Assembly: GCA_963851265.1 (NCBI GenBank)
Contig: CAWKNZ010000002.1
Span: forward strand, 1,056,001-1,120,000
DNA from: an uncultured Gemmatimonadales bacterium
Lineage (GTDB): Bacteria; Gemmatimonadota; Gemmatimonadetes; Gemmatimonadales; Gemmatimonadaceae
Length of the DNA stretch: 64,000 nucleotides
Direction: 5' to 3'
The notes beneath the pieces are model-generated. The model did no database searches. It saw only the letters and a program-made list of their open reading frames with translations, and was not told the DNA's origin. Positions 467-60,510 of this stretch are shown in pieces. The position numbers and the translations under genes were made by a program. How positions within the stretch are numbered: position 1 is the first letter of the stretch; the number at the start of each line of letters is the position of its first letter.

Positions 467-1792
467 ATGGCCGCCCCTGTCCGGATCGACGAGTTGCGGC
501 ATCGCTACGCCGCGCAGCCGCGCCGGTATCTCGCTCCACTTGCGAACGCGCTGCGGCAGGCGGGTGCGCTCGAGGAGGCGGTGACGATGTTGCGCGCGCA
601 GTTGGCGGAGTACCCCGATCACCTGACGGGCCACGTCGTGCTCGGGCAGGCGCTCTTCGATACCGGCGCCCTCGCCGACGCTCGCGTCGCGTTTGAGGCC
701 GCGCGTGCGCTCGACCCGGGGAACCGCGTCGTGCTGCGGCAACTCGGCGAAATCGCGAGTCTCGCAGGCGATCGTGAGGCCGCGCGGCGGTGGTTCGAGC
801 GGCTCCGGGCTGCCGAACCGTATGCCGACGACGTCGGCGTCCAGCTCGGCGGCGCGTCGTTCACGCCGCCCGAAGCCGAGGACGTCGACGGTGTCGCGGG
901 CGCGATCGAGCCGGATCGCGAGGTGCGCGGGCAGGTGATCGCGGCAGAGGTGCCGACGCTGGTGGCACCAGGACCGGAGCCCGAGGACGCCCGTGGTCCC
1001 GAGCTACTCGGCACCGACGCGTTCGAACCGCTCGAGTTCGCGCCGCACGAGTTCGCCCTGCACGAGCTTGCGCCGGTGACGACCGACACCGCCGCTTCGG
1101 AGCGCGTGGCGGTCGGAACGACGCAGGCCGACGCGGCTCCGCTCGATCCGGTGGTCGGGCTCGACCTCGCGCCGTCGGAAGCGCCAGCCGTCCTGGCCGA
1201 CGCCGACGTGGCCAACGCCGACGTGGCCAACGCCGACGTGGCCGATTCGCGCGCGTCGCGCGACGTCGGCCAGCTTCACGACGACGCCGCGGGGTTCGAG
1301 CACATCACCAACGGGCCGTTCGCGACCGAGACGATGGCCGGATTGCTCGCCGCACAGGGACACACCGACCAGGCGATCGCGCTGTACGAACGCCTGACAG
1401 CCGATCGCCCCGGCGATGCGGGGCTACGCGCCCGTCTGGGCGCGTTGCGCGGCGACGGGCCGAGCGACGCGCCCCCACCTGTGTCGCCGAGTTCGGCGCC
1501 CGTGAGCGGCACCAGCGACGCCGAACGGGGCGCGGTGCTCGCGGCCGCATTCGCGGACCCCTACGCGGATCTGTCGTTCGACCGGTTTTTCGCGGCCGCG
1601 CCTGCGGAGGCCGCGGGGCTCCCGCCATCGCCGCCGGCAAGAGCGGCGACGCCTTCGCCGCCCACGGGAGCGGCCGCGGCATCGAACGGCGACGATGCGT
1701 CGCTGGACACGCCGGACCCGATGCCTAACGGTGCGTCGGAGGATGCGGACCTGGCGCGGTTCGACACGTGGCTCCGCGACACGGCGGCGTGA
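467..1792 (+). CDS. Tetratricopeptide repeat protein with long acidic low-complexity linker
   Basis: N-terminal TPRs ([31 protein letters not shown]). Internal [26 protein letters not shown]-like motif. ATG at 467 chosen over TTG at 365. Confidence 0.8.
1202..1243 (+). repeat. In-frame 15-bp tandem repeat (GCCGACGTGGCCAAC, about 2.8 copies; peptide ADVAN)
   Basis: Direct reading: gccgacgtggccaac gccgacgtggccaac gccgacgtggcc. Confidence 0.9.
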
Positions 1793-1814
1793 CGGACCGC
1801 GCGATGCGCGGCCG

Positions 1815-2312
1815 ATGAGCGCGCCGTGGCGGGTCGCGGTGTTGAACGGCCCCAACCTGAACCTCCTCGGACGGCGCGAGCCGCAGCTGTATGGGCGCGA
1901 GACGCTGGCGGACGTCGAACGGCGGATGCGGATGCTGGGCGGTGACCTCGGCGCGGAGCTGTCGTTCGCGCAACACAACGGGGAGGGGGAACTCGTCAGC
2001 GCCGTGCACGCGTTCGCCGGCGCGGTCGACGCCGCAATCGTGAACGCGGGCGCGTACAGCCACACGAGTCTCGCATTGCGCGACGCGCTCGTCGGTGTCG
2101 CGGTCCCGTTCGTCGAAGTGCACGTCACCAACGTCTACGCCCGCGAGCGCGAGCGGCACCGATCGGCCCTCGCACCGGCGGCGGTCGGGACGATCGTCGG
2201 ATTCGGAATCTTCGGCTACGAACTCGCGCTCCGCGCGGTCGTCGCGGTTCTCGAGCGGACGCGCGGGTCGGCCGGCGCCGCACCGGCCTCATCGCCCGAC
2301 CACCGTTCATGA
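1815..2312 (+). CDS. aroQ: Type II 3-dehydroquinate dehydratase
   Basis: VLNGPNLNLLGRREPQLYG, NAGAYSHTSLALRDA and VEVHVTN motifs. Confidence 0.95.
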   Translation: MSAPWRVAVLNGPNLNLLGRREPQLYGRETLADVERRMRMLGGDLGAELSFAQHNGEGELVSAVHAFAGAVDAAIVNAGAYSHTSLALRDALVGVAVPFVEVHVTNVYARERERHRSALAPAAVGTIVGFGIFGYELALRAVVAVLERTRGSAGAAPASSPDHRS

Positions 2313-3400
2313 CTGACCACCGTTCCGCGCGCGTCGCGGCGCTCGTCGCACAGCTCGAGGTCGCGCACTTCGACGCGGTGCTGTTGACCGGACTCGCGAA
2401 CGTGCGCTACCTGACCGGGTTCAGCGGCACCAGCGCGCTCGCCGTCGTCACGCGTCGTGCCGACGTCCTGCTCATCACCGACTTCCGCTACCAGACGCAG
2501 GCCGCCGAACAGGTCGGGGGGGCCGCGCGCGTCGTCATCGAACAGGCGAGCCTCTGGAGCGGGCTCTGGCAGCAGCTGCCGCAGCTCGCGTACACGGAGG
2601 TCATCGGGTTCGAGAGTGCTCACCTCCTGCACCGCGACTTCCAGCGCCTGCTCGAAGCCGGGTCGCGCTGGTCGTGGCGCCCCACCACCGACCTCGTTGA
2701 GGCGTTGCGGGAGCGTAAGGACGCCGACGAGGTCGCGTGCGTACGGGCCGCGGGCGAGGTCGCGATGGCGGCGCTCGCGCGCACGCTCGACGACGTGAGG
2801 CCTGGGATGACGGAGCTGGGCGTGGCGGGGTTGCTCGAAGGGAACCTTCGCGCTGCCGGCAGCGAGGGGTTCCCGTTCGAAACCATCGTCGCAAGTGGGC
2901 CGCGTTCGGCGCTGCCGCATGCCCGCGCGTCCAATCGGGTGCTCGCGCGCGGCGACCTGCTGCTGGTCGACTTCGGAGCCGTGGTCGACGGCTACTGCGC
3001 GGACGTCACGCGCACGGTCGTCCTCGGGCCCCCGGACGACCGGCAGCGTGAGGTGCACGGGATCGTTCGAGCTGCCAACGAGCGCGCGTCGGCCCTGGTG
3101 CGCGCCGGCATGAGCGGGCGACAGGCCGACGCGCTGGCGCGCGACTTCATCGCCGCGCACGGTTTCGGCGACGCGTTCGGTCACTCGCTCGGGCACGGCC
3201 TCGGCCTCGAGGTGCACGAGGCGCCGCGCCTCGCGCGTACGGCTGACGCGGTCCTTCCGCCACAGGCCGTCGTCACGATCGAGCCGGGGATCTACCTGCC
3301 TGGTTGGGGCGGGGTTCGCGTCGAGGATGACGTGCACCTCGCGGCGGACGGTCCGGTGCTCCTGACCGACTTCTCGCGCGATCTGTTGACGATTTCGTAA
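2309..3400 (+). CDS. Xaa-Pro aminopeptidase (M24 family)
   Basis: NVRYLTGFSG creatinase N-domain; DFGA...YCADVTRT, HSLGHGLGLEVHE, TIEPGIY and GVRVED motifs; ATGA overlap with aroQ. Confidence 0.93.
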   Translation: MTDHRSARVAALVAQLEVAHFDAVLLTGLANVRYLTGFSGTSALAVVTRRADVLLITDFRYQTQAAEQVGGAARVVIEQASLWSGLWQQLPQLAYTEVIGFESAHLLHRDFQRLLEAGSRWSWRPTTDLVEALRERKDADEVACVRAAGEVAMAALARTLDDVRPGMTELGVAGLLEGNLRAAGSEGFPFETIVASGPRSALPHARASNRVLARGDLLLVDFGAVVDGYCADVTRTVVLGPPDDRQREVHGIVRAANERASALVRAGMSGRQADALARDFIAAHGFGDAFGHSLGHGLGLEVHEAPRLARTADAVLPPQAVVTIEPGIYLPGWGGVRVEDDVHLAADGPVLLTDFSRDLLTIS

Positions 3401-3571
3401 GCGGGCACGGGTGGTGGGGGCCGCCCGGCGCTCCCGTCCGCGTGCTCGTCGTGCTACCCTCCCCGGTCTTCCGCGGATTGGATCTCCGCGGGCCAGGCTT
3501 CCGCGCGCCGGGCGTTCGCCCGACCGCCGCGGCGTTCGCCGTCGCGCGTCGCGCTTCCTTCCTCGCTCCTG

Positions 3572-4099
3572 ATGATCGACCTCCGCTACGTCAAGAAGCT
3601 CATCGAGATGCTGGACGCGTCGTCCGTCGATTCGATCGAGATTTCGTCCGACAAGGGGATGAAGCTGCGCATCGCGAAGACGCCGACGCAGCGCGGCGCG
3701 CCGATGGTCGCCGCGCCCTTGCCCGCGGTTCCCGCGGTGCTCGCGGGCGGGGCGGTTGTTTCGGGCGCGCTGGGCGCCGCGACCGGCGCGGCACCGCTCG
3801 CGGCCGCTCCGGTCGCGGCGCCCGCGCCCGCCGCGCCCGCGCCGCCGACCCCGAGCGGAGTCGAGATCACCTCACCGATGGTCGGCACGTTCTACAGCTC
3901 GGCGGAGCCTGGCGCGCCGGCGTTCGTCACCGTCGGCCAGCGCGTGAGCAAGGGCCAGGTCGTGTGCATCATCGAGGCGATGAAGATCATGAACGAGATC
4001 GAGAGCGATCACGACGGCGTGGTCACGGCGGTTCTCGCCGAGAACGCCCACCCGGTCGAGTACGGACAGGCGCTGTACCGCGTCGATCCGAACGGCTGA
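3572..4099 (+). CDS. accB: Acetyl-CoA carboxylase biotin carboxyl carrier protein
   Basis: SPMVGTFY and EAMKIMNEI biotinylation motif; Ala/Pro-rich linker. Confidence 0.97.
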
Positions 4100-4112
4100 C
4101 GCGTCGCGCTTC

Positions 4113-5537
4113 GTGTTCAACAAGGTTCTCATCGCCAACCGGGGCGAGATCGCGCTCCGCGTCATCCGCGCCTGCCGCGAGCTCGGCGTCGACGCCGTTG
4201 CGGTCTACTCCGAGGCGGACCGTGAATCGCTGCACGTGCGCTTCGCGGACGACGACGTGTGCATCGGCCCGGCGGCGGGTCGCGAATCGTACCTCAACAT
4301 CCCGCGGCTGATAGCGGCCGCGGAAATCACCGGCGCCGACGCGATCCACCCGGGCTACGGATTCCTGGCCGAGAACGCGGAGTTCGCCGAGACGTGCGCG
4401 GCGAGCGGCATTGCGTTCATCGGTCCGACCGCGTCACAGATCCGCACGATGGGCGACAAGTCGGCGGCGCGCCGCGCGATGGCCGACGTGGGCGTTCCGA
4501 TCGTGCCCGGCACGCCCGGCCCCGTCGAAGACCCCGCCGAGGCGCTCGGCTTCGCCGAAACGATCGGTTTTCCGGTCATCATCAAGGCGGCGGCCGGCGG
4601 GGGCGGGAAGGGGATGCGCGTCTCGCACGACCCGGACGACTTCCTGCGGGCGTTCCAGCTCGCACGCTCGGAAGCGTTAGGCGCGTTCGGGAACGGCGAC
4701 GTGTACATCGAGAAGTACCTCGAGCGCCCGCGCCACGTCGAGTTCCAGATCCTCGGCGACCAGTTCGGCCACGTGATCCACCTCGGCGAGCGCGACTGCT
4801 CGGTGCAGCGGCGGCACCAGAAGCTCGTCGAGGAGGCGCCGTGTCCGGTGATCACGCCCGAGCTGCGCGAGGCCATGGGCGATGCGGCCGTTCGCGGTGC
4901 GAAGGCGATCGACTACGTCGGCGCGGGCACGGTCGAGATGCTGCTCAACGCGGACGGCGCGTTCTACTTCATGGAGATGAACACGCGCATCCAGGTCGAG
5001 CACCCGGTCACGGAGATGCTGACCGGCGTGGACCTCGTGAAGGAGCAGATCCGCGTCGCCGCCGGGGAGCCGCTCTCGGTCCGTGCGATGCCGCCGCTGC
5101 GCGGGCACGTGATCGAGTGCCGCGTGAATGCGGAGGACCCGACGCGCAACTTCCAGCCATCGCCTGGTCACATCACGACCTTTCACCCGCCCGGCGGGCC
5201 GGGCGTGCGTCTCGACACGCACGTGTACGCGGGCTACACGGTGCCGCCCTACTACGACTCGCTCATCGCCAAGCTGATCGTCCAAGGGAGCGACCGGGAG
5301 GAGGCACTCCGGCGCATGCAACTCGCGCTCGAGACGTTCATCATCGAGGGCGTCGCGACGACGATGCCGTTTCTCGCCGTGGTGATGCAGGATGCGCAGT
5401 TCCGAGCGGCGGACGTTGACACGAAGTGGTTGGAGCGCAATTTCGACCGCCTCCGCGGCGAACTCGCGCAGGCCGAGCAGGCCCGCGCCGACGCGGCGCG
5501 CGTCGAGCCGCGCGCGATCACGCACGTCCCGCGGTAG
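4113..5537 (+). CDS. accC: Acetyl-CoA carboxylase biotin carboxylase subunit
   Basis: [35 protein letters not shown] and [10 protein letters not shown] motifs. Confidence 0.97.
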
Positions 5538-5669
5538 CGGGGCGCGTCACAGCGGTCGCGTGCCCGGCGCCCGGTTCGGCGTCGGCGCCGCGCCGAGGTG
5601 GGCCGTGCGGCGCGACACGCCGCGCGTAGATTCGTGGAAGGGTTCGGACCGCGCGTCGCGCACACGAGG

Positions 5670-8201
5670 ATGATGACGGCTTTGCGGGGATGGGTGGCGG
5701 CCGCGTTTGGGACGGGCGCGGCTCACGACGCGGGGGTCGCGCTCTCCCCCGAGCGTGCGCGGCGGCGCGAGTACGAGCGCTCGGAACTGGCCGGGCTGGC
5801 GTGGCTCGCGCTCGGGCTGTTCCTCGCCGTCGCGCTCGGGCTCAAGGCCGTACAGACCGCCTTCGGCCACGCGGGCGGCGGCTTGGGTGCGGTCGGCTCG
5901 TTCGCGGCCGGCGCGCTCGTGACCGCCCTCGGCTGGAGCGGCGCCGTGCTCGTGCCCGCGGCGCCGCTCGCGCACGCGCTGCGCGGCTTCGGGCGCCTCG
6001 CGCCGGCGGACGACCGGCGCTGGCTCGCATTGTTAGGCGGCCTCGCGCTGCTCGTCCCAGTCGCCGTGGCCCTCGCCGTCGGTGCGGGTCGCGGCGAACT
6101 CAGCGCGGCGGCCGGGCTCTGGGGCGGGTTCGCCGCGTTCTCCGCGCGCGAGTTGTTAGGGACGGCCGGCGGCTGGATCGTCGTGCTGTTCGCGTCGTCG
6201 GCGCTCCTCGTGCGCACCGTGGCGTGGAATCCGGTTCGCGCGCTGCTCCGCCCGCGCCGGCGCGGCGCGCCCGTGCTCACGTATGCGGAGGTCCTCGGCG
6301 ATGAGACGCCCGCGGATCGCGGGCGACGCGGGCGCAGGAAGTCGCTGCCGCTGGACCTTGCGCGTGCGCTCGAACCCGCGCCGGAGGAGATGCCAGCCGC
6401 GGATCGCGCGATGCTCGAAGCCGCCAGGGAGTTTCCGCGCCCGGCCGCGGCCGGAGACGGGAGCGGTGTCGCGTCCGCGGTGGCCGAGGTCGAGGGCGCG
6501 CGCCGCGGCAAGAAGGTGCGCGGTGGCACGCTGGGCGTCGCGCAGCCGGTGCTCGAACAGATCCGGAGCGACGTGGCCGCCGAAGCCGCCGCGGAGGCGG
6601 GCGGCGCCGAAGTGCTCGCCGAACGGCCGCCGCGCGAGCTGCTGGACGCGGCGCCGCCGCGGAACTCCGAGGTGAGTCGGCGCGAGCTGGACCTCGCGGG
6701 CGCGCGGCTCGAGGAGGTGCTGCGGACGTTCCGCATCGACGGCCAGATCACCGGGCGCACGGTCGGGCCGACGGTGACGCAGTTCGAGTACACGCCCGCG
6801 GCCGGCGTGAAGGTACGGCAGATCGCGTCGCTCGCGGACGACCTGGCGCTCGCGATGCGCGCGCCGAGTATCCGCATCGTCGCACCGATTCCGGGCAAGG
6901 GAGCCGTCGGCATCGAGGTGCCCAACGCGACGCGCGAGATGGTCGCGTTCCGCGACCTCGTCGAGAGTCGCGAGTTTCAGGACGCGAAAGCTGCGCTGCC
7001 TGTCGCGTTGGGCAAGGATCTCGAAGGGCGCACGATCGTCGCCGACCTCGCCAAGATGCCGCACCTGCTCATCGCGGGCGCGACGGGCGCCGGGAAAAGC
7101 GTGTGCGTGAACACGATCATCACGTCGCTCGTCTACCGGCACACGCCGCGGACGCTGCGCTTCCTGATGGTAGACCCGAAGATGGTCGAGCTGTCGGTGT
7201 ACAACGACCTGCCGCACATGCGGCACAAAGTGATCACCGACAGCAAGGACGCCGCCGCCGTTCTCAAGTGGGCGCTCATGGAGATGGAGGAGCGCTACGC
7301 GCTGCTGGCCGAAAACGGCTGCCGCAACCTCCAGGACTTCAACCGGCGCGTGCGCCAGCACGCCGACGGTGCGGGCGCCCCGTTGAAGGCGAAGGTCCCG
7401 TCCGACACGGGCTTTCTGTACAACGAGTACACGAAGGGCGAGTTGCCGTACGTCGTCGTGGTGATCGACGAGATGGCCGACCTGATGATGACCGTGCAGG
7501 GCGAGGTCGAGACGCCGATCGCGCGCCTGGCGCAGAAGGCGCGCGCGATCGGGATCCACCTCATCATCGCGACGCAGCGGCCGAGCGTGAATGTCATCAC
7601 CGGTCTGATCAAGGCGAACTTCCCGAGCCGCATCGCGTTCCGGGTCGCGTCGCAAATCGACAGTCGCACCATCATCGACGGCGCCGGGGCCGAGTTGCTG
7701 CTCGGGAACGGCGACCTGCTCTTCATTCCGCCGGGCAGCAGCGCGCCGTCGCGCATCCAGGGCGCGTACCTGTCGAGCGAGGAGACCGAGCGCCTGATGG
7801 GTTGGTACCGCGACCGGGCCGAAGGGACCTCGGCGGAAGGGCGCGCGCGGGCCGCCGGTGTGGACGCGGAGATCGCGGCGCGCGACGGCGACGAGGAGGA
7901 CATCCTCGAGGTCGTGCGCCGTCGCGAGGCGCTCGACGCCGGGTCCGGCGCGGGCGACGACGAGCCAGCGGCGGGCGAACGCGACAAGCTGTTCTACGAG
8001 GCGGCAGAGGCGTGTATCCAGCACCAGGGCGGGTCCACGTCGTTGCTCCAGCGCCGGCTGAAGATCGGGTACGGTCGTGCCGCGCGGATCATCGATCAGC
8101 TGAACGCGGCCGGCGTACTCGGGCCGCCCGACGGTTCGAAGCCGCGCGACGTGCTCGTCGGGCTCGAAGACCTGCACCGGCTCCCCGCCGGGCGCGAGTG
8201 A
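5670..8201 (+). CDS. ftsK: DNA translocase FtsK
   Basis: N-terminal 4TM region, Walker A GATGAGKS, IDEMADLMM, ATQRPSV, gamma domain (SLLQRRLKIGYGRAARIID); start approximate. Confidence 0.95.
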   Translation: MMTALRGWVAAAFGTGAAHDAGVALSPERARRREYERSELAGLAWLALGLFLAVALGLKAVQTAFGHAGGGLGAVGSFAAGALVTALGWSGAVLVPAAPLAHALRGFGRLAPADDRRWLALLGGLALLVPVAVALAVGAGRGELSAAAGLWGGFAAFSARELLGTAGGWIVVLFASSALLVRTVAWNPVRALLRPRRRGAPVLTYAEVLGDETPADRGRRGRRKSLPLDLARALEPAPEEMPAADRAMLEAAREFPRPAAAGDGSGVASAVAEVEGARRGKKVRGGTLGVAQPVLEQIRSDVAAEAAAEAGGAEVLAERPPRELLDAAPPRNSEVSRRELDLAGARLEEVLRTFRIDGQITGRTVGPTVTQFEYTPAAGVKVRQIASLADDLALAMRAPSIRIVAPIPGKGAVGIEVPNATREMVAFRDLVESREFQDAKAALPVALGKDLEGRTIVADLAKMPHLLIAGATGAGKSVCVNTIITSLVYRHTPRTLRFLMVDPKMVELSVYNDLPHMRHKVITDSKDAAAVLKWALMEMEERYALLAENGCRNLQDFNRRVRQHADGAGAPLKAKVPSDTGFLYNEYTKGELPYVVVVIDEMADLMMTVQGEVETPIARLAQKARAIGIHLIIATQRPSVNVITGLIKANFPSRIAFRVASQIDSRTIIDGAGAELLLGNGDLLFIPPGSSAPSRIQGAYLSSEETERLMGWYRDRAEGTSAEGRARAAGVDAEIAARDGDEEDILEVVRRREALDAGSGAGDDEPAAGERDKLFYEAAEACIQHQGGSTSLLQRRLKIGYGRAARIIDQLNAAGVLGPPDGSKPRDVLVGLEDLHRLPAGRE

Positions 8202-8231
8202 GCGTCGCACGCGACGACGATCGGTGAGCGT

Positions 8232-9059
8232 GTGATCCTGCTCGACCCCGACGCCCGGCTCGTCATCGCGCATCGCGGGGATTCGGCGCACGCGCCGGAG
8301 AATACGATCGAGAGTTTCGCTCGGGCCGTCGAGTTGGGCGCGCACGCGCTCGAATTCGACTGTCGCGTGTCGGCGGACGGCGTCGCGATGGTCGTGCACG
8401 ACGAGATGCTGGACCGGACCACCGACGCGCGCGGCCTTGTACGCGCGCTGACCGCCGACAGGTTAGGTGAGGTCGACGCGGGCGCGCGCTTCGTCGCCGA
8501 CCGCGCCGGCTCGCGTCCCTTCGCCGGGCGCGGGATCGGGGTGCCCACGCTCGACGCGGTCCTCGGTGCGTTCCCGGGAGTCCCCGTGCTGATCGAGGTC
8601 AAGGAACTCGCCGCGTGTGACGCCGTGCGCGCCACGCTGGATCGTCATGCCGCAGTCGATCGCGCAGTCGTCGCATCGTTCCGCGACGACGTGGTGGCCT
8701 ACTTCCGCGGGACGGCGTACCCGACGGGCGCGGCGCAGGGGGACGTGGTCCGACTGCTCCGTGCGGCGGTCACGGGCGGACGCATCGTCCCGGCGTACCG
8801 CGCGGCGTCGATCCCACCGTCGTACCGCGGGCTTCCGCTGCCGCTCGGACGATTCGCGCGGCTACTCGCTCCGTTCGGCGTACCCGTGCACGTGTGGACG
8901 GTCGACGACGCGCGCGCGGCCACGCGGCTGTGGGATGTGGGCGTGAGCGGGATCGTGTCGAATGCCCCGGGCGTCGTGCTCCACGCGCTGCGCGGGCGCC
9001 AACCGACCGGCCGCGAACCGTCCGGGCGCGGTGGGCAGGCGGTCGCGCGCGAGGTTTGA
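8232..9059 (+). CDS. Glycerophosphodiester phosphodiesterase family protein
   Basis: IAHRG..APENT, EFDCR.SADG, HD..LDRTT and VHVWTVD motifs. Confidence 0.93.
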   Translation: MILLDPDARLVIAHRGDSAHAPENTIESFARAVELGAHALEFDCRVSADGVAMVVHDEMLDRTTDARGLVRALTADRLGEVDAGARFVADRAGSRPFAGRGIGVPTLDAVLGAFPGVPVLIEVKELAACDAVRATLDRHAAVDRAVVASFRDDVVAYFRGTAYPTGAAQGDVVRLLRAAVTGGRIVPAYRAASIPPSYRGLPLPLGRFARLLAPFGVPVHVWTVDDARAATRLWDVGVSGIVSNAPGVVLHALRGRQPTGREPSGRGGQAVAREV

Positions 9060-9117
9060 GCCCACTTTGACACGTTCTGATGCACGCGGAACGGGACGTC
9101 TCGCGTAGCCTGGGCCC

Positions 9118-9585: not shown

Positions 9586-9612
9586 CAACACGTTACAACG
9601 CACTCGCGGCGC

Positions 9613-16348: not shown

Positions 16349-17100
16349 TCGACCTCCGCGGGCGGCGCGCCGTGGTGAGCGGGGCGTCGCGCGGCATCGG
16401 CGCGGCCGCGGTTCGGCTGCTCGCGGGCGCGGGTGCCGACGTGGTCGTGGGCTACCGCGCGCGCGCGCACGACGCCGAAGCCGTGGCCGCGGAGGCGCGC
16501 GCGACCGGGGCGCGCGCGGTGACGTGCGCCGCAGACCTCGACACGCGGGCCGGGTGCGACGCGCTGGTGCAGGCCGGCGTCGACGCGTTCGGCGGGATCG
16601 ACATCGTCGTGATCAACCATGGCGTGTGGCCCGCCGAGGAGGTCGCCGTCGCGGCGATGGACGACGCGCGGTGGAGCGCGACGATGCGCGCCGACCTCGA
16701 CTCGGTGTTCTGGCTCTCGCGCGCGGCGGCCGGCGCGTTAGGCGCGGGCGGACGGCTCGTGCTCGTGTCCAGCACGGCCGGGCAGCGTGGCGAGGCGTTC
16801 CACGCCGACTACGCGGCGGCGAAGGGCGCCATGATCAGCTTCGTCAAGTCGCTCGCCGTCGAACTTGCGCCGCGCGACGTGACCGTCAACTGCGTCGCGC
16901 CGGGGTGGGTCGACACCGAGATGACCGACTCGGCGCTCCGAGGCGGCGGCCGCGCGCGCATCGCGGGCACGATCCCGATCGGACGCGTCGCGAGCGCCGA
17001 GGACGTCGCGGGCCCGATCGTATTCCTCGCGTCGCCGCTCGCGCGCCATGTGACGGGTGAGGTGCTCAACGTGAACGGCGGGAGCGTACTGTGCGGCTGA
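16345..17100 (+). CDS. Short-chain dehydrogenase/reductase (FabG-like)
   Basis: SGASRGIG, YAAAKG, VNCVAPGWVDT and VTGEVLNVNGG motifs; GTG overlaps the gmhA stop. Confidence 0.92.
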   Translation: MIDLRGRRAVVSGASRGIGAAAVRLLAGAGADVVVGYRARAHDAEAVAAEARATGARAVTCAADLDTRAGCDALVQAGVDAFGGIDIVVINHGVWPAEEVAVAAMDDARWSATMRADLDSVFWLSRAAAGALGAGGRLVLVSSTAGQRGEAFHADYAAAKGAMISFVKSLAVELAPRDVTVNCVAPGWVDTEMTDSALRGGGRARIAGTIPIGRVASAEDVAGPIVFLASPLARHVTGEVLNVNGGSVLCG

Positions 17101-48241: not shown

Positions 48242-48291
48242 GTTAGGAGGAGCGGGGGTGGCGGGGTGGGGGCGACGAGACGCGCCGATGG

Positions 48292-49449
48292 TCAGACGGC
48301 GGCGGGGTGGAGCTCCGCGGCGCCTAACGTAGCCCTGACGGCCGCGGTGACGCGTGCTTGGTCCCGAGCGGTGAGTGACGACGACGACGGTAGGCACACG
48401 CCGGTGCGGTACAGGCGCTCGGCGACGCCGCCGCCGATCACGCCGCAGCCTTCGAACATCGGCTGCATGTGCATCGGGCGCCAGACGGGGCGCGCCTCGA
48501 TGTCGTCGGCCCCCAGTCGCGCGACGAGCGCGGTCGGCGTCGCCGCCGCGACGTCGGGGTCGAGGAACATGACCGTGAGCCATCGCGAGTGCGTGCCCCA
48601 GGCGGCCTCGCGCTGGAACTCGACGCCGGGCAGCGAGCCGAGCGCGTCGCGGTAGCGTTCGAACACGGCTCGGCGCTGGGCGACGCGCTCGGCGAGCACG
48701 GTGATCTGCCCGCGCCCGATCCCGGCGAGGACGTTGCTCAGCCGGTAGTTGTAGCCGAGCTCCGCGTGCAGGTACTCGACCGCCGGCTCGCGCGACTGGT
48801 TGGCCCACTTGCGCATGCGCGCGAGGGCGTCGGCGTCGCGCGTGACGACCATCCCGCCGCCGGTGGTCGTGATGATCTTGTTGCCGTTGAAGCTCAGGAT
48901 GGCGTAGTCGGCGGTGGTCGCGGTCGGGCGGCCGCCGTACGTCGCGCCGAGCGACTCGGCCGCGTCCTCGACGAGGGTCACGCCGTACTCGGCGCACGCG
49001 TGCGCGATCGCGTCGACGTCGGCGTGTTGGCCGTACAGGTGCACCGCGACGAGCGCCTTCGGCAGCGCGCCGCGCCGCGCCGCGTCGCGCAGGTACTCCG
49101 CGACGAGATCCGCAGAGACGTTGCCCGACTCGGCCTCGCTGTCGACGAATACCGGCGTCGCGCCGAGGTACAGGATGGGCCACACGGAGCCCGCGAACGT
49201 GAGCGACGAAACGGCGACCCGGTCGCCCGGGCCGACGCCGACGGCGCGCAGCACGAGGTGTAAGGCCGCCGTGCCGCTCGCAGTCGCCAGGGTGCGCACG
49301 CCGTGGCCTAACGCAGAGGCGACGTCGGCTTCGAAGCCGTCGAGGCTGGGCCCGGTCGATGACAGCCAGTTCGTGCGGAACGCCTCGTCCACGAACGAGC
49401 GCTCGAGGCCGCTCATGTGTGGGACGGAGAGGTAGATGCGATCGGACAT
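48292..49449 (-). CDS. DegT/DnrJ/EryC1/StrS aminotransferase (PglE/EpsN-like)
   Basis: SGTAALHL, EDAAESLGA, SFNGNKIITT.GGG, GYNYRLSN and RPVWRPMH motifs. Confidence 0.94.
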   Translation of the reverse strand: MSDRIYLSVPHMSGLERSFVDEAFRTNWLSSTGPSLDGFEADVASALGHGVRTLATASGTAALHLVLRAVGVGPGDRVAVSSLTFAGSVWPILYLGATPVFVDSEAESGNVSADLVAEYLRDAARRGALPKALVAVHLYGQHADVDAIAHACAEYGVTLVEDAAESLGATYGGRPTATTADYAILSFNGNKIITTTGGGMVVTRDADALARMRKWANQSREPAVEYLHAELGYNYRLSNVLAGIGRGQITVLAERVAQRRAVFERYRDALGSLPGVEFQREAAWGTHSRWLTVMFLDPDVAAATPTALVARLGADDIEARPVWRPMHMQPMFEGCGVIGGGVAERLYRTGVCLPSSSSLTARDQARVTAAVRATLGAAELHPAAV

Positions 49450-51568: not shown

Positions 51569-52747
51569 ATGGGAGGCGTCGCGAGCGGCCCCGCGCCTCG
51601 GCGCGTCGCGATCGTGCACGAATGGCTCGTCAACTACGCCGGGTCGGAGCGCGTGCTCGAGCAGCTGCTCCTGCTGTTCCCGCACGCGGACCTGTTCGCG
51701 GTGGTCGACTTCGTGCCCCCCGACGAGCGCGCGTTCCTCGGCGGCCGCCGCGCGCGGACGACGTTCGTGCAGCGGCTGCCATTTGCGCGCACGCGCTACC
51801 GCACGTATCTGCCGCTCATGCCGCTCGCCATCGAGCAGCTGGACGTGTCCGCATACGACCTCGTGATCTCGAGCAGTCACGCGGTGGCGAAAGGCGTACT
51901 CGTCGGGCCGGACACGCTGCACGTGTGCTACTGCCACACCCCGCTCCGCTACGCCTGGGAACTGCAGCACGCGTATCTGCGGGATAGTGGGCTCGCGAAT
52001 GGCGTCGCCGGGTGGGCGGCGCGGTGGATGCTTCACCGCCTGCGCATGTGGGACGTCCGGTCGTCGACCGGCGTGGACGCGTTCGTCGCCAACTCGGCGT
52101 TCGTCGCTCGCCGCATTCGCAAGGCGTATCGGCGCGATGCGGGCGTGATCTATCCGCCGGTCGACGTCGAGCGGTTTCGTCCCGCGGGCGCTGGACGCGG
52201 GAATTACTACGTGACCGCGTCGCGCTTCGTCCCGTACAAGCGCGTCGGGATGATCGTCGACGCGTTCCGCGCGCTACCGGATCGCGAGCTGGTCGTGATC
52301 GGCGACGGACCGCAGCGCCGGGAGATCGAGCGCCTGGCGGGCCCGAACGTGCGCGTACTCGGGCACGTGCCCGGGGCCGAGTTACGGGGCTGGATCGCGG
52401 GGGCGCGCGCGTTCCTCTTCGCCGCCGTCGAGGATTTCGGGATCGCGCCGGTCGAGGCGCAGGCTGCCGGCACGCCGGTGATCGCCTACGGCGAGGGCGG
52501 CGTGTGCGAGACGATTCCGGGTCTCGATGCGTTGGAACCGTGCGGGGTTCTGTATGCCGAGCAGACGGCCGCGTCACTCGCCGACGCGGTGCGCCGGTTC
52601 GAAGCGACGGGGGACCTCATCACCGCGGCCGCCTGCCGCAGCAACGCCGTGCGCTTCTCCGCCGATCGGTTCCGGGCGGAGTTCGCCGCGTTCGTCGACG
52701 CGGCGCTCGCGGCGGAGCGAACGGCGGCGCGCGCCGCCGGCGCCTAA
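51569..52747 (+). CDS. Glycosyltransferase family 4 (WbaZ-like mannosyltransferase)
   Basis: VHEWL..AGSERVL, SSSHAVAKGV, YCHTPLRYAW and EDFGIAPVEAQAAG motifs. Confidence 0.92.
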   Translation: MGGVASGPAPRRVAIVHEWLVNYAGSERVLEQLLLLFPHADLFAVVDFVPPDERAFLGGRRARTTFVQRLPFARTRYRTYLPLMPLAIEQLDVSAYDLVISSSHAVAKGVLVGPDTLHVCYCHTPLRYAWELQHAYLRDSGLANGVAGWAARWMLHRLRMWDVRSSTGVDAFVANSAFVARRIRKAYRRDAGVIYPPVDVERFRPAGAGRGNYYVTASRFVPYKRVGMIVDAFRALPDRELVVIGDGPQRREIERLAGPNVRVLGHVPGAELRGWIAGARAFLFAAVEDFGIAPVEAQAAGTPVIAYGEGGVCETIPGLDALEPCGVLYAEQTAASLADAVRRFEATGDLITAAACRSNAVRFSADRFRAEFAAFVDAALAAERTAARAAGA

Positions 52748-52757
52748 CGCGCGACTG

Positions 52758-58450: not shown

Positions 58451-59616
58451 CGCGCGTCGCGCGGGACATCACGGTGGCCGTCGACGCACGCGCGCTGCAC
58501 TCGTCCGGCATCGGGCGGTACCTCCGTGAGCTGCTCGGAATCTGGCTCCGCGACGCGTCGTTCGATCGCCTGACGCTCCTCGGCGAGCCCGACGTGCTCC
58601 GGCCTTTCATCGCCGAGCGCGAATCCGCGATGCGCGTCGACATCGTTCCGCACCGCGGCACGGCGTACTCGCCGGTCGGGCAGTGGTCGTGGGTCGCCGG
58701 CGGGCGCGGCGCGGCCGCGCAGGCCGACGTCACGTTTTTCCCGAACTGGGACGCGCCCGCAGTCGGGCTGCCGCGCCGCAGCGTCGTGACCGTGCACGAC
58801 CTGACGCCGTTCCGCGTTCCCGACGCCTTCGGGGCCGCGCGCCGCGCGGGCGGCCGGGTGCTCCTGCGGCGCGTGCTGTCGCGCGCCGCTCGCGTCGTGT
58901 GCGTGTCGCAGGCGGCCGCGGCGGACGTGCGCGCCGACTTCCCCGCGCTGACGTCGCCGATCGACGTGGTGCCTAACGGCGTCGATCCGCGGTTCGGCGA
59001 ACCGGCCGGTCCACCGCCGGTGGCGGGGCCGTACCTGCTGTGGGTCGGGAATCTCAAACCGCACAAGAACCCTACGGCCGCCCTCGACGTGCTCGCTCGC
59101 GCGCGAGCCGCCGGATGGCCCGGGCTCCGGCTCGTGTGCGTCGGGCGTGCGTTCCCCGAGCTCGAACTCGCCGATCTCGCCGCGGCGCGCGGGCTGGGAG
59201 ACGCGGTCCTCGCGCTCGGCGAGGCCGACGACGCGACGCTCTGCGCGCTCTATGCCGGGTGCGTAGCGCTGGTCTTTCCGTCGCGCGCCGAGGGGTTCGG
59301 GTTGCCCGTACTCGAGGCGATGACGGCGGGCGCGCCGGTGATCGCGTCGGGCCTGCCTGCCCTGCGCGAGGTGGTCGGAGATGCGTGGCCGCTCCACGCG
59401 CCCGACGACGTCGATTCGATGGCGCGCGCCGTGACGCAGCTACTCAGCTCGCCCGAGGCACGCGCGGCCGGGATCGCTCGGGGCCGCGCTCGCGCCGCTC
59501 ACTTCAGCTGGACGGCGAGCGCGGGCCGGACGGCAGCCATCTTTCGAGACGTCGCGGGGCCCTCTCGCGCCGAGCGCGGCCGGATCGGCGCGGCGCACCG
59601 GGCGGCGGTGGGCTGA
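58447..59616 (+). CDS. Glycosyltransferase family 4
   Basis: VDAR..SGIGRY, VTVHDL, GNLKPHKN and FPSRAEGFGLPVLEAM motifs. Confidence 0.92.
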   Translation: MTRVARDITVAVDARALHSSGIGRYLRELLGIWLRDASFDRLTLLGEPDVLRPFIAERESAMRVDIVPHRGTAYSPVGQWSWVAGGRGAAAQADVTFFPNWDAPAVGLPRRSVVTVHDLTPFRVPDAFGAARRAGGRVLLRRVLSRAARVVCVSQAAAADVRADFPALTSPIDVVPNGVDPRFGEPAGPPPVAGPYLLWVGNLKPHKNPTAALDVLARARAAGWPGLRLVCVGRAFPELELADLAAARGLGDAVLALGEADDATLCALYAGCVALVFPSRAEGFGLPVLEAMTAGAPVIASGLPALREVVGDAWPLHAPDDVDSMARAVTQLLSSPEARAAGIARGRARAAHFSWTASAGRTAAIFRDVAGPSRAERGRIGAAHRAAVG

Positions 59617-59680
59617 GGTGTCATTACAGGTGCATGCAACTTTGCGGAAGTCGATCGGGCGCGAGTCAGCCGTCTCGAAC

Positions 59681-60502
59681 GTGATTGCGAACGGGACGCG
59701 GCGGTACGCGCCCCGACTGTCGGCCGTGGCGAACGCGCTGGCGGTCGCGGGCGGCGCGTTCGTGATCGGCGGCTGCGGTCCTTGCGACGGCGTGATCGGC
59801 TGCAACCGGAACCCCCGCCTCGACATCAGCGGTCAGTTCATCGACCGCGACGCTCCGGGCACGCCGCCGCTCGGCGGCGTGCGCGTCGAGGTGATCCGCA
59901 TCTCCGGCGTCGGCCTCAGTGCGCCGTCGGTGGTCGGGGTGAGTGACGCGACCGGCTGGTGGTCGGTGTCGATCGGCGCGGGGGCGCCCAACGCATTCGT
60001 CAACGTCGACCTGCTCGTCACGCCCCCGGCGCCCAACGCGCCATACCGTGTGCGCGCGGTCCAGTTCGCGACGACGTCGACGTACGGCGCTGGCGCACAG
60101 GTCGGGCGCTGGGTCGCGCACCCGTACATCACCTACGTGGGCCTGCTCCTCGACGCGGCCAGCGGACGCCCGATCGCGAACGCGAACGTCACCATCGTGC
60201 CGCGCGGCGGCGTGGCGATCACGCCGACGCCCGCGACGAAAATGTCGTCGCTCACCGACGAATCGGGCCAGTTCGTGTACGACGTTCGCCCGGCGGACCT
60301 GCAGCCACTGTTCGTCGACTTCTACGTCGACCGGCCCGGACTGCCCCGGGCCGTGGTCACGAACGCGCAGCTCGACCCCAGCTACGAAGACACGCCCCCG
60401 CGCGCGTTCGCCGCGAGCACCTTCACGATCGACAGCGCCGGACGGGTGTCCGGCGGGCTCACGCAGTCCCGGGCCGCCGCGCGCGCGCGCGGCTTGCGTT
60501 AG
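59681..60502 (+). CDS. Putative lipoprotein with two carboxypeptidase-regulatory-like beta-sandwich repeats
   Basis: Hydrophobic stretch ending VIGGC; repeats G...D...G.P.....V ... (S/T)D..G; start uncertain (59618-59726). Confidence 0.65.
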   Translation: MIANGTRRYAPRLSAVANALAVAGGAFVIGGCGPCDGVIGCNRNPRLDISGQFIDRDAPGTPPLGGVRVEVIRISGVGLSAPSVVGVSDATGWWSVSIGAGAPNAFVNVDLLVTPPAPNAPYRVRAVQFATTSTYGAGAQVGRWVAHPYITYVGLLLDAASGRPIANANVTIVPRGGVAITPTPATKMSSLTDESGQFVYDVRPADLQPLFVDFYVDRPGLPRAVVTNAQLDPSYEDTPPRAFAASTFTIDSAGRVSGGLTQSRAAARARGLR

Positions 60503-60510
60503 GCGCCGTC

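What the first reader, a model, noticed from the sequence alone, without database searches (positions are those of the whole stretch)
1723..60504. Dispersed over-represented motif (C/T)GTTAGGC in genes on both strands: candidate unrecognised genome-wide DNA signal
Seen (manual count, may miss a few): GTTAGGC on + at 4676, 6032, 13671, 14340, 16737, 17681, 40680, 41336, 43533 and 60498, and on - (GCCTAAC) at 1723, 25938, 48322, 49306, 52742 and 58971. That is 16 copies, 14 of them CGTTAGGC; variants GTTAGG(G/T/A) occur at 6155, 8462 and 48242. About 19 of the roughly 26 TTAG/CTAA tetramers I found are GTTAGG. The motif is accommodated in different frames: as the very rare Leu codon TTA plus GGC (accC, ftsK, alaS x2, SDR, asparaginase, GT4, oxidoreductase, aminotransferase x2), as CCT-AAC (Pro-Asn), as CGC-CTA-ACG, and as stop codons (CGT-TAG, GCC-TAA). 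A rough zero-order estimate at about 72% GC gives only about 2 CGTTAGGC for both strands, and TTA/TAG are depleted here. Inference: the constraint acts on DNA rather than protein, like the known dispersed signals (DNA uptake sequences, Chi, KOPS, HIP1, matS, nucleoid-protein or methyltransferase sites), but it matches none I know. The 10:6 strand split is not strongly polarised. It occurs in both the core genes and the polysaccharide locus.
Basis: partly seen in the sequence, partly recalled or inferred. Interest (0 to 1): 0.8.

Follow-up and report, generated by a model that had tools for sequence, protein, structure and literature searches.

The report
Genome-wide GTTAGGC word, uptake-tag-like
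This soil bacterium (Gemmatimonadaceae) and scattered relatives have written the exact DNA word (C/T)GTTAGGC about 1,800 times into genes, stop codons and spacers against their own codon habits, which resembles the "self tags" that Neisseria and Haemophilus use for DNA uptake, and the word is spelled like the recombination core of the integrons these bacteria carry.

Summary
Genome-wide it is the top 6- to 9-mer: 1762 copies against about 126 expected.

It acts on DNA, not protein. It is 7-24x enriched in all four stop-free frames under synonymous shuffling, 8-10x in intergenic DNA, and it supplies 28% of TAA stops.

- There is no strand polarity beyond gene direction.
- Copies avoid each other within about 300 bp.
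- Sites persist among congeners far beyond neutral synonymous sites (57% vs 7%).
- Fill rises with codon typicality.

The trait is present or absent by lineage: 14 of 301 sampled genomes of the phylum, all in one order. Rich and poor genomes occur as sister lineages and within one genus. A poor sister has no substitute word.

The word and its flanks (Y at -1, non-T at +7) equal the attC R box of resident integrons. Over 98% of copies are solitary.

I found no C5 or N4/N6 methylase, Vsr or RecC. AddA-like, IntI, ComEC, PilQ and pilin genes do not track the trait.

Best reading (0.45): an uptake-sequence-like transfer tag with an unknown reader. The scan has reported this word before on other windows of this genome.

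The parts
1723..1729 (-). CGTTAGGC copy, antisense to a TPR-repeat gene (467-1792 +), read there as G-CCT-AAC (Pro-Asn)
4676..4682 (+). CGTTAGGC in biotin carboxylase accC (4113-5537 +) as G-TTA-GGC (Leu-Gly). Present at the same column in all 4 of the genus members compared.
   Evidence: (column 563)
6032..6038 (+). TGTTAGGC in ftsK (5634-8201 +) as G-TTA-GGC. Specific to this genome; the orthologues have CTC-GGC.
   Evidence: (column 422)
13671..13677 (+). TGTTAGGC in alaS (12637-15381 +) as G-TTA-GGC. Shared with G002, G004 and G012; G001 has TTG-GGC.
   Evidence: (column 1070)
14340..14346 (+). CGTTAGGC in alaS as G-TTA-GGC. Shared with G002 and G004.
   Evidence: column 1754
16737..16743 (+). 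CGTTAGGC in a short-chain dehydrogenase gene (16345-17100 +) as G-TTA-GGC. Shared with G001.
   Evidence: (column 392)
17681..17687 (+). CGTTAGGC in an asparaginase gene (17091-18128 +) as G-TTA-GGC. Shared with G001 and G004; G002 has TTG-GGC.
   Evidence: (column 602)
25938..25944 (-). CGTTAGGC antisense to a gene without a Pfam match (25301-26560 +), read there as GC-CTA-AC
40680..40686 (+). CGTTAGGC in a family 4 glycosyltransferase gene (40084-41340 +) as G-TTA-GGC. Shared with G004.
   Evidence: (column 596)
41336..41342 (+). CGTTAGGC supplying the TAG stop (41338-41340) of the glycosyltransferase gene. It overlaps the start region of a heparinase II/III-like gene (41327-43261 +). Shared with G004.
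43533..43539 (+). CGTTAGGC in an oxidoreductase gene (43258-45420 +) as G-TTA-GGC. Shared with G004.
   Evidence: (column 275)
48322..48328 (-). CGTTAGGC in a DegT/DnrJ-type aminotransferase gene (48292-49449 -), sense strand, G-TTA-GGC. Not seen in the orthologues compared.
   Evidence: (column 1121)
49306..49312 (-). CGTTAGGC in the same aminotransferase gene, sense strand, G-TTA-GGC. G004 has TGTTAGGC at the same column.
   Evidence: column 137
52742..52748 (-). CGTTAGGC whose complement GCC-TAA-C supplies the last codon and the TAA stop of a glycosyltransferase gene (51569-52747 +)
58971..58977 (-). CGTTAGGC antisense to a glycosyltransferase gene (58447-59616 +), read there as G-CCT-AAC
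60498..60504 (+). CGTTAGGC supplying the TAG stop (60500-60502) of a gene without a Pfam match (59642-60502 +)
6155..6161 (+). One-off variant GTTAGGG in ftsK. At the same alignment column G001, G002 and G012 have the full word, so this is probably a decayed copy.
   Evidence: (column 545)
8462..8468 (+). One-off variant GTTAGGT. G001, G002 and G004 have the full word at the same column, so this is probably a decayed copy.
   Evidence: (w8232 column 230)
48242..48248 (+). One-off variant GTTAGGA

Best explanation
YGTTAGGC(R) is a lineage-specific tag written on duplex DNA. It is kept at high copy number by a sequence-specific reader that ignores strand, reading frame and gene identity.

The most likely mechanism is the one accepted for the uptake sequences of Neisseriaceae and Pasteurellaceae. 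Fragments that carry the word are favoured at some step of DNA transfer between cells: uptake at the surface is the model case, and a later protection or integration step is possible. Any mutation that creates the word then spreads by recombination (molecular drive, possibly helped by selection). It settles where it costs the protein least: Leu-Gly, Pro-Asn, stop codons and spacers. One copy per fragment is enough, which would explain why copies avoid each other within about 300 bp.

Shown here: the word is a DNA-level signal, its sites are maintained, they are evenly spaced, there is no polarity, and its distribution among lineages is patchy.

Inferred: that the selected step is DNA transfer. 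Its specificity equals the R' box of the resident integron attC sites.
For: Abundance. The word is the top k-mer of the genome: 1762 vs about 126 expected, and CGTTAGGC 1396 vs 58.

DNA-level signal.
- All four stop-free frames are enriched under synonymous shuffling: 989 vs 41, 205 vs 20, 76 vs 10, 24 vs 1.1.
- Fill of silent opportunities is similar on both strands: 9.1% of x-Leu-Gly (989/10831) and 14.0% of x-Pro-Asn (205/1462).
- Intergenic DNA holds 281 vs 27-35 expected, at a higher density than genes (0.53 vs 0.32 per kb). Density is highest between convergent genes (63 sites in 55.9 kb).
- 121 of 429 TAA stops and 83 of 733 TAG stops lie in the word.

Sharpness. 989 of 1296 TTA codons are G-TTA-GGC. 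Fill is 17.3% when G precedes and 0.2-0.6% after A, C or T.

No polarity. Leu-Gly fill is 7.0% (123/1751) in majority-strand genes and 6.9% (23/332) in minority-strand genes.

Even spacing.
- Genic neighbours under 100 bp: 3 vs 39.5 +/- 5.8. Under 200 bp: 10 vs 76.8 +/- 8.3. Under 400 bp: 62 vs 146 +/- 11.
- Both orientations are affected: 16 vs 73.7 and 9 vs 26.0 under 300 bp.
- The pattern is replicated in G012 (12 vs 42 under 200 bp) and G305 (13 vs 33 under 400 bp).

Maintenance. Within the genus, P(word in B | word in A) is 57% (98/172) vs 7.3% (74/1012). Minor-codon controls give 22% vs 8% and 30% vs 16%. Many sites are nevertheless species-specific gains.

Residence time. Fill rises from 2.4% in the least typical genes to 10.8% in the most codon-typical genes.

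Machinery. G000 has ComEC, a PilQ-like secretin and type IV pilin-like genes.

Literature (passages read). Uptake sequences show no orientation bias, an excess in non-coding DNA, 35-65% of copies inside ORFs, and even spacing (PMC1939737). DUS spacing matches conversion-tract length and DUS are conserved (PMC2397512).
Against: - No uptake or transformation has been shown for any Gemmatimonadota. I found no paper combining 'Gemmatimon*' with 'uptake sequence'.
- ComEC (40 of 41 relatives), the PilQ-like secretin (40 of 41, all below the family cut-off) and the two pilin-like genes tested occur in word-poor genomes too. No gene was found that tracks the trait.
- Known uptake sequences are family-wide and vary as dialects. 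Here the same word is either present or absent in sister lineages and within one genus (G241 3896 and G298 4141 vs G294 66). A poor sister, G006, has no substitute word.
- The identity with the integron R box, flanks included, is unexplained by a plain uptake model.
- The exclusion zone (about 200-300 bp) does not widen in genomes with a lower density of the word. A fragment-size explanation did not predict this.
- Gene calls come from a home-made caller. Class counts are therefore approximate.
Confidence: 0.45

Rival explanations
1. Integron-linked reader. The integron integrase, or another protein with the same R-box specificity, reads solitary duplex R boxes inside the cell. It drives or selects their spread, for instance by short-patch conversion of near-cognate sites during abortive strand exchange, or by favouring integration of incoming DNA that carries the box.
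For: - The word is the canonical R box GTTRRRY/RYYYAAC (PMC12901181).
- G000's own attC sites end in GCCTAACG...CGTTAGGC.
- Co-oriented clusters of the word in poor relatives are cassette arrays.
- Flank preferences coincide. At 48 attC sites one end has C 38 / T 9 / G 1 / A 0 at -1, and both ends have G 22-23, A 12-15, C 8-11, T 2-3 at +7. Dispersed copies have C .80 / T .13 at -1 and G .54 / A .21 / C .19 / T .05 at +7. The same flanks recur in five separate rich lineages.
- Integrases are common in the order: 25 of 41 genomes score over the cut-off. This supplies a shared module that would explain why separate lineages carry the same word.
Against: - IntI presence does not track the trait. 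Poor genomes G005-7, G009, G010, G014, G025, G026 and G294 have intact genes. Rich G002, G008 and G018 show none (78%, 93% and 79% complete). In G001 and G012 the gene is broken, and in G000 it is split by a 2.1-kb insert.
- More than 98% of copies lack any partner box or hairpin.
- Other GTTRRRY variants used in attC sites are not enriched: G-TTA-GAC 0.27% and GGT 1.7%, against GGC 17.3%.
- No known integrase reaction rewrites a site in frame.
- Thousands of active recombination sites inside essential genes should be harmful.
Confidence: 0.2
2. Host chromosome-organisation site. The word is the binding site of a nucleoid-associated or DNA-management protein present only in some lineages. Its density and regular spacing are selected for the host's own benefit, not for DNA exchange.
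For: - Density is uniform over all 12 contigs (0.33-0.55 per kb).
- A fixed exclusion distance of about 200-300 bp holds regardless of density. This could be a protein footprint or an oligomer spacing.
- Site retention is strong.
Against: - No candidate protein was found.
- No skew relative to gene-strand bias, unlike KOPS-type architecture signals.
- Site turnover is high, with many species-specific positions.
- Close relatives live without the word.
Confidence: 0.12
3. Methylation-dependent or other mismatch-repair drive, as proposed for the HIP1 palindrome of cyanobacteria. A repair nuclease converts near-cognate sites into the word.
For: - The word is sharply defined, asymmetric and 7-8 bp long, which is typical of type IIG/III or BREX-like methylase sites.
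- G000 encodes one Eco57I/MmeI-type methylase of 1140 aa next to an SNF2 helicase.
- The patchy distribution resembles that reported for HIP1 (recalled, not read here).
Against: - G000 (94% complete) shows no C5 methylase (PF00145), no N4/N6 methylase (PF01555), no Dam (PF02086) and no Vsr (PF03852). PF02384 is seen mainly as frameshifted pieces at two contig ends.
- The Eco57I-type gene is conserved in 40 of 41 relatives, rich and poor alike. It is no more similar among rich genomes: 53% to rich G008 and 54% to poor G006.
- A site-autonomous mutational drive does not predict copies avoiding each other.
Confidence: 0.07
4. Chi-like signal. The word is recognised by a RecBCD/AddAB-type helicase-nuclease and protects or recombines self DNA.
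For: - It is an over-represented 8-mer at about 1 per 2.6 kb, comparable to Chi.
- One weak AddA-like gene exists in G000 (152 bits, far below the cut-off of 861).
Against: - No orientation bias.
- No RecC in G000.
- The AddA-like gene was not found at E <= 1e-20 in rich G001-G004, G008, G012, G018, G036 and G040. It is present in several poor genomes.
- Enrichment against codon usage is far stronger than for known Chi sites (recalled).
Confidence: 0.04
5. Translation-level effect. TTA-GGC is a favoured codon pair and there is no DNA-level function.
For: 56% of copies (989 of 1762) are sense G-TTA-GGC.
Against: - Antisense frames, stop codons and intergenic DNA are enriched 7-10x.
- The base before the codon must be G, and the one before that a pyrimidine.
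- The genes with the strongest codon bias carry the most copies.
Confidence: 0.01

Closest known systems
DNA uptake sequences: DUS of Neisseriaceae (read by the minor pilin ComP) and USS of Pasteurellaceae
   Same: - A short exact word at about 0.4-1.6 per kb, on both strands and without replication polarity.
- Written into genes in the frames that cost least.
- Denser in non-coding DNA, evenly spaced and conserved among relatives.
- Rarer in atypical genes (compared with PMC1939737 and PMC2397512, passages read).
   Different: - Different phylum, and no demonstrated competence.
- Present or absent by genus or species rather than family-wide with dialects.
- Shorter (7-9 specified bases).
- Few inverted terminator pairs.
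- The word equals an integron recombination core.
- No receptor identified.
Integron attC/attI core site (R box, GTTRRRY / RYYYAAC)
   Same: Identical heptamer and the same flanking preferences. Genuine attC sites with this box exist in this genome and its relatives.
   Different: - More than 98% of copies are solitary and lie inside ordinary genes. They have no partner box, no L boxes, no hairpin and no cassette boundary.
- Only the exact GTTAGGC variant is enriched.
- Abundance does not follow the presence of integrase.
HIP1 (GCGATCGC) of cyanobacteria (recalled from memory, not read here)
   Same: An 8-mer iterated about once per kb in all frames, with a patchy distribution among lineages and a debated origin (drive vs function).
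   Different: - HIP1 is palindromic and tied to cognate methylases.
- Here the word is asymmetric, and no matching methylase or Vsr was found.
Chi sites (RecBCD/AddAB) and KOPS/AIMS
   Same: Over-represented asymmetric octamers that act on DNA rather than on protein.
   Different: - Those are co-oriented with replication, whereas this word is not.
- No RecC was found, and no AddA-like gene tracks the trait.

Membership tests
DNA uptake sequence (DUS/USS type) | Short exact word hundreds to thousands of times over expectation, at roughly a per-kb density | tested here: met
   1762 copies vs about 126 expected in G000. Up to 6360 CGTTAGGC in G012.
DNA uptake sequence (DUS/USS type) | [quoted passage not shown] | tested here: met
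   885 vs 877 copies. Leu-Gly fill is 7.0% in majority-strand genes and 6.9% in minority-strand genes. Origin and terminus are not known, so gene-strand bias was used as a proxy.
DNA uptake sequence (DUS/USS type) | Present in coding DNA in every permissible frame and over-represented in non-coding DNA | tested here: met
DNA uptake sequence (DUS/USS type) | Spacing more even than random | tested here: met
   Neighbours under 200 bp: 10 vs 76.8 +/- 8.3. Replicated in G012 and G305.
DNA uptake sequence (DUS/USS type) | DNA carrying the word is taken up or transformed preferentially | not testable with these tools
   Needs an uptake or transformation assay in a word-rich strain.
DNA uptake sequence (DUS/USS type) | Competence machinery and a sequence-specific receptor | tested here: inconclusive
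   ComEC, a PilQ-like secretin and pilin-like genes are present. They are equally present in word-poor genomes. Two pilin candidates do not track the trait.
DNA uptake sequence (DUS/USS type) | Shared by a whole family, with related dialects in related genera | tested here: not met
   14 of 301 genomes are rich. Sister lineages and one congener are poor. G006 has no alternative word.
Integron attC recombination site | R box of consensus GTTRRRY / RYYYAAC | tested here: met
   Exact match, flanks included.
Integron attC recombination site | Paired R''-L''...L'-R' imperfect inverted repeat of about 60-130 bp at a cassette boundary | tested here: not met
   Flanks of the 1762 copies carry no information beyond -1 and +7. 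Only 13 R''...R' pairs exist genome-wide, of which 9 (on C6 and C10) look like attC sites by eye.
Chi | Co-orientation with replication and a cognate RecBCD/AddAB enzyme | tested here: not met
HIP1-type iterated palindrome | Palindromic word with a cognate methyltransferase in the genome | tested here: not met
   The word is asymmetric. PF00145, PF01555, PF02086 and PF03852 were not found. The one Eco57I-type gene is universal in the order.
KOPS / architecture-imparting sequences | Strong strand skew that switches at origin and terminus | tested here: not met
   Strand use follows gene direction only.

The most novel reading that the evidence does not exclude
An integron-linked transfer tag. 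A mobile reader with the integrase's R-box specificity biases DNA acquisition towards DNA that carries attC-type boxes, in effect scavenging gene cassettes from the environment.

This single idea would account for four observations:
- the exact identity with the resident attC R' box, flanks included;
- the same word in several separate lineages of one integron-rich order;
- the presence/absence pattern among close relatives;
- the uptake-sequence-like genome signatures.
Probability: 0.15. Interest if true: 0.95.

Novelty: new variant of a known kind. Interest (0 to 1): 0.8.

Why it matters
Sequence-tagged DNA exchange is firmly known from only two families of host-associated Proteobacteria. 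A third case would show that such tagging is a recurrent solution. This one lies in an abundant soil phylum, arose or was lost repeatedly within one order, and has natural rich/poor sister pairs. Those pairs would give a tractable route to the long-sought logic of how such tags arise, by drive or by selection.

The exact identity with the integron recombination core raises a testable link between cassette capture and DNA acquisition.

There are also practical points:
- The word is a sharp marker for binning and for spotting foreign DNA in Gemmatimonadaceae genomes.
- It inflates TTA, TAG and TAA usage, which could mislead codon-based analyses.

Tried and rejected
- **Reader hunt, nothing tracks the trait.** Tested: IntI, ComEC (42), PilQ-like secretin (64), a 411-aa and a 330-aa pilin-like protein (71, 75), the Eco57I/MmeI-type methylase (81) and an AddA-like helicase-nuclease (89).
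- **Two genus-specific genes beside comEC** are not shared with other rich lineages.
- **G000's cassettes** encode toxin-antitoxin pairs, TonB_C-type proteins and insertion sequences. None looks like a DNA receptor.
- **Dialect idea rejected.** 400 kb of poor G006 has no hyper-abundant word, with a top 8-mer O/E of about 3. It does not specially avoid GTTAGGC either: 3 observed vs 1.8-6.8 expected.
- **Longer repeat or mobile element rejected.** Flanks show only codon periodicity.
- **A crude ungapped test for attC arm complementarity** returned 0 of the pairs. It is uninformative, because real attC stems are bulged.
- **Sequencing runs.** No RNA holder is listed. The only holders are assembled contigs with small shares of the words, so read-end or nicking patterns could not be examined, and read laying was not used.
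- **Rfam** found nothing in the insert that splits intI.
- **A named culturable example** was sought by an accession recalled from memory and was not in the collection.
- **Shared positions between G012 and the genus.** By my hand tally these number 5 of 21 G012 sites. That is too few to separate common descent from convergence.

Full report
**Observation.**

One search finds GTTAGGC at the 16 stated places, where 2.2 are expected from dinucleotide shuffles and 0 of 100 shuffles reach 16. One search finds 14 of them as CGTTAGGC (1.06 expected). One search confirms 26 TTAG/CTAA tetramers, 19 GTTAGG and the three one-off variants.

The window is G000:C2:1056001-1120000 of a 4.60-Mb, 12-contig, 73% GC genome. 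Its AlaS is closest (69% and 68%) to Gemmatimonadaceae MAGs.

Genome-wide there are 885 + 877 = 1762 GTTAGGC, and 1396 of them are CGTTAGGC. 1762 of all 2470 TTAG lie in the word. Under an order-3 Markov model the expectations are 126 and 58. The word and its sub-words rank first among all 6-, 7-, 8- and 9-mers. Higher-order models 'predict' it only because they learn it from the word itself.

**Anatomy.**

The logo is Y (C .79, T .14) at -1, an invariant GTTAGGC, and a weak preference at +7 (G .54, A .22, C .19, T .05). Beyond that the flanks show only codon periodicity. The word is therefore not part of a longer repeat.

No gene finder was available, so I wrote a codon-usage gene caller (3682 genes, 88.5% coding). 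The class counts that follow are approximate for that reason. The copies fall as follows:

| Class | Copies |
|---|---|
| sense G-TTA-GGC | 989 |
| antisense CCT-AAC | 205 |
| antisense GC-CTA-AC | 75 |
| sense GTT-AGG | 22 |
| miscalled | 2 |
| across gene ends | 188 |
| intergenic | 281 |

Specificity is sharp:
- 989 of 1296 TTA codons are G-TTA-GGC.
- Fill is 17.3% (989/5729) after G and 0.2-0.6% after A, C or T.
- Fill is 3.2%, 1.7% and 0.6% when the Gly codon is GGA, GGT or GGG.
- Fill is 0.27% for G-TTA-GAC.

Shuffling synonymous codons within each gene is conservative, because it keeps the inflated TTA count. With 30 replicates the results are:

| Frame | Observed | Expected |
|---|---|---|
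| G-TTA-GGC | 989 | 41.0 +/- 7.1 |
| CCT-AAC | 205 | 20.4 +/- 3.5 |
| GC-CTA-AC | 76 | 10.4 +/- 2.6 |
| GTT-AGG | 24 | 1.1 |

The share of silent opportunities that are filled is similar on the two strands: 9.1% of x-Leu-Gly and 14.0% of x-Pro-Asn.

Intergenic DNA holds 281 copies against 27-35 expected, and the word is its top 7-mer. 121 of 429 TAA stops and 83 of 733 TAG stops are embedded in the word. The signal is therefore on DNA, not on protein or translation.

**Further properties.**

*Polarity.* The strand of the word follows gene direction and nothing else. Leu-Gly fill is 7.0% (123/1751) in genes on the locally dominant strand and 6.9% (23/332) in the others.

*Position.* Position within genes is uniform. 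Density is highest between convergent genes (63 sites in 55.9 kb). Tandem spacers hold 0.5 per kb and divergent spacers 0.39 per kb. Density is uniform over contigs (0.33-0.55 per kb). The longest word-free stretch is 45 kb.

*Spacing.* Copies avoid each other. The null fills the same number of silent opportunity sites at random (300 replicates):

| Neighbour distance | Observed | Null |
|---|---|---|
| under 100 bp | 3 | 39.5 +/- 5.8 |
| under 200 bp | 10 | 76.8 +/- 8.3 |
| under 400 bp | 62 | 146 +/- 11 |
| under 800 bp | 199 | 266 +/- 13 |

Both relative orientations are affected: 16 vs 73.7 and 9 vs 26.0 under 300 bp. With a simpler uniform null, the same zone of about 200 bp appears in G012, which is four times denser (12 vs 42 under 200 bp). 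It also appears in G305 (13 vs 33 under 400 bp).

*Typical genes carry more.* Fill rises with codon-usage typicality, from 2.4% in the lowest decile to 10.8% in the top quartile. This is the opposite of what selection on translation would give. It is what slow accumulation in resident DNA would give. The lowest class may contain false gene calls.

**Evolution of sites.**

Synteny with four relatives let me codon-align the window genes. Many sites are species-specific, and the usual alternatives are the synonymous CTC/CTG/TTG-GGC. A few sites involve Val/Leu changes. Others are shared.

Over 18,570 aligned codon columns of G000, G001, G002 and G004 (window genes plus the comEC region):
- A Leu-Gly column bearing the word in one species bears it in another in 98 of 172 ordered comparisons (57%). 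Columns without the word do so in 74 of 1012 (7.3%).
- Minor-codon controls give CTG 22% vs 8% and GGG 30% vs 16%.
- Four-fold site identity is 57%.
- Where one species has TTG, the other has TTA in 26 of 50 cases. One-off variants are therefore mostly decayed or nascent copies.

The word is thus both gained repeatedly and actively retained.

**Distribution.**

*Relatives.* Of 41 relatives, 11 hold at least 300 CGTTAGGC: all five members of the genus, plus G008, G012 (6360), G017, G018, G036 and G040. Most others hold 3-65, below the reversed-word control.

*Phylum.* In an even sample of 301 genomes of the phylum, 14 are rich:
- 10 of 70 in the family;
- 4 of 125 in a second family, all in one genus;
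- 0 of 103 in nine further families.

Within one genus, G241 (3896) and G298 (4141) contrast with G294 (66).

These tallies include unpublished genomes: G011 in the 41-genome tallies, and G011, G086, G125 and G204 in the 301-genome tally. All of them are word-poor rows, and no other claim rests on them.

*Tree.* I built a tree of 36 relatives from ten syntenic genes around comEC (4086 columns, FastTree, midpoint root). G017, G018 and G036 were dropped for having under 25% of the data, and G011 and G021 were not fetched. Rich lineages fall apart from one another, each next to poor sisters:
- the genus clade sits beside G022;
- G012 sits beside the moderate G019;
- G008 sits beside G006;
- G040/G038 lie in another family.

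*No dialect.* A 400-kb sample of poor G006 has no other hyper-abundant word and shows no special avoidance of this one.

*One specificity.* The extended consensus (Y at -1, mostly purine and rarely T at +7) is the same in G305, G012, G008, G040, G001, G002 and G004.

*Interpretation.* Two histories fit. In the first, the same word arose at least four or five times, which needs a transferable reader or a shared pre-existing module. In the second, it is old and was lost many times. By my hand tally, positions shared between G012 and the genus number 5 of 21 G012 sites, which is too few to decide.

One named public record is word-rich: JBGAHX010000003.1 has 8 copies in 22.7 kb. alaS loci of other phyla hold 26 copies in 1.15 Mb.

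**The integron link.**

A text search for the word led to an integron paper. Passages read there give:
- R'' = RYYYAAC and R' = GTTRRRY;
- the crossover lies after the first base of R';
- GCCTAAC is the R'' of attC-aadB (PMC12901181).

The co-oriented clusters of the word, about 550 bp apart, in poor relatives G027 and G025 are classical cassette arrays. Each attC runs GCCTAAC...GTTAGGC.

G000 itself has arrays on C10 and C6 whose attC sites end GCCTAACG...CGTTAGGC. Their cassettes encode toxin-antitoxin pairs and carry two identical IS110 copies. G000's intI is split at about residue 258 by a 2.1-kb insert that carries a large serine recombinase gene.

Flanks of 48 attC sites from four arrays match the dispersed copies:

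| Position | attC sites | Dispersed copies in G000 |
|---|---|---|
| -1 (one end) | C 38, T 9, G 1, A 0 | C .80, T .13 |
| -1 (other end) | T 32, C 9, G 6, A 1 | same as above |
| +7 (both ends) | G 22-23, A 12-15, C 8-11, T 2-3 | G .54, A .21, C .19, T .05 |

Three things speak against a direct integron role:
- More than 98% of copies are solitary.
- Other R-box variants are not enriched.
- Integrase presence does not follow the trait.

Integrons are already known from this phylum (PMC8618304, passage read).

**Candidate machinery.**

G000 (94% complete) has no PF00145, PF01555, PF02086 or PF03852. PF02384 appears as frameshifted pieces at two contig ends, plus a weak match inside the Eco57I-type gene. 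Its one Eco57I/MmeI-type methylase, paired with an SNF2 helicase, is conserved in 40 of 41 relatives.

RecC was not found. A weak AddA-like gene does not occur in the other rich genomes.

ComEC (40 of 41), a PilQ-like secretin (40 of 41, all below the family cut-off) and pilin-like genes exist in rich and poor genomes alike.

**Reading.**

The signatures match those described for uptake sequences. No orientation bias, an excess in non-coding DNA, many copies inside ORFs and even spacing are reported in PMC1939737. Spacing tied to conversion tracts, conserved copies and under-representation in strain-specific DNA are reported in PMC2397512.

I therefore favour a transfer-linked tag spread by molecular drive (0.45). 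Two features do not fit the textbook case: the presence/absence pattern among close relatives, and the identity with the integron R box. They keep an integron-linked reader (0.20) and a host DNA-organising site (0.12) alive. Methylation/repair drive (0.07), Chi (0.04) and codon-pair effects (0.01) are disfavoured by direct tests.

I found no paper that describes this word as a dispersed signal. The searches were: the word itself (which returned two unrelated papers), 'Gemmatimon*' with 'uptake sequence' (none), and 'Gemmatimonas' with 'overrepresented' and 'oligonucleotide' (unrelated).

Earlier notes of this scan reported the same word, the uptake-like reading and the integron identity on other windows of this genome and in another genome. 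I reached the integron link independently, before reading them. Among the tests I ran here are:
- the exclusion-zone test;
- the retention test with controls;
- the polarity test by fill fraction;
- the tree and the phylum-wide distribution;
- the flank match to attC sites;
- the negative gene-tracking tests.

Noticed in passing
L169 (G000:C6:1-20000) 3005-6230: The integron integrase gene of this genome is split at about residue 258. Residues 1-260 lie at 6032-5244 and residues 257-308 at 3160-3005, both on the - strand. The split is caused by a 2.1-kb insert encoding a large serine recombinase (Resolvase + Recombinase + Zn_ribbon_recom). This may be an excisable element that switches the integrase on and off. 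No Rfam match was found in the insert.
   Followed up: partly
G000:C10:200950-202059 and 206483-207592 (L170/L171): Two 100% identical IS110-family transposase genes lie inside the cassette array. Each has a GCCTAAC box 95 bp upstream of the gene. There are no copies elsewhere in the genome, which suggests attC-targeted insertion rather than use of the solitary words.
   Followed up: partly
L189 (G000:C7:572001-592000) 7717-13508, - strand: A 1140-aa Eco57I/MmeI-type methylase gene lies next to a 758-aa SNF2-family helicase gene. The methylase is conserved in 40 of 41 relatives, which is unusual for a restriction-type methylase. It looks like a core gene of unknown role.
   Followed up: partly
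G000:C7:771474-772495 and G000:C9:923-1858: N6_Mtase (PF02384) matches are broken over several frames at two contig ends. This could be a decayed type I or IIG methylase, or a repeat that broke the assembly.
   Followed up: no
whole genome: The Leu codon CTG is strongly avoided before Gly: 11% of Leu codons before Gly against 36% elsewhere. This is independent of the word and may be a separate codon-pair or CTGG-avoidance effect.
   Followed up: no
L001 (G027:C95:1-20000), L002 (G025:C3:1-9000), L003 (G027:C80:1-7000), L184 (G026:C8:59001-79000): Word-poor relatives carry large sedentary integron arrays with very homogeneous attC sites of about 90 nt. In L003 the integrase fragment lies downstream of the array and on the same strand as the boxes.
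   Followed up: partly
G000:C1:182876-227962: This is the longest stretch without the word (45 kb, 37 called genes). Its codon-usage score is slightly low (0.24 vs the genome mean of 0.27). It may be recently acquired DNA.
   Followed up: no
G241, G298 vs G294 (one genus): Two congeners hold about 4000 copies of the word and a third holds 66. All three have intact integrase genes.
   Followed up: partly
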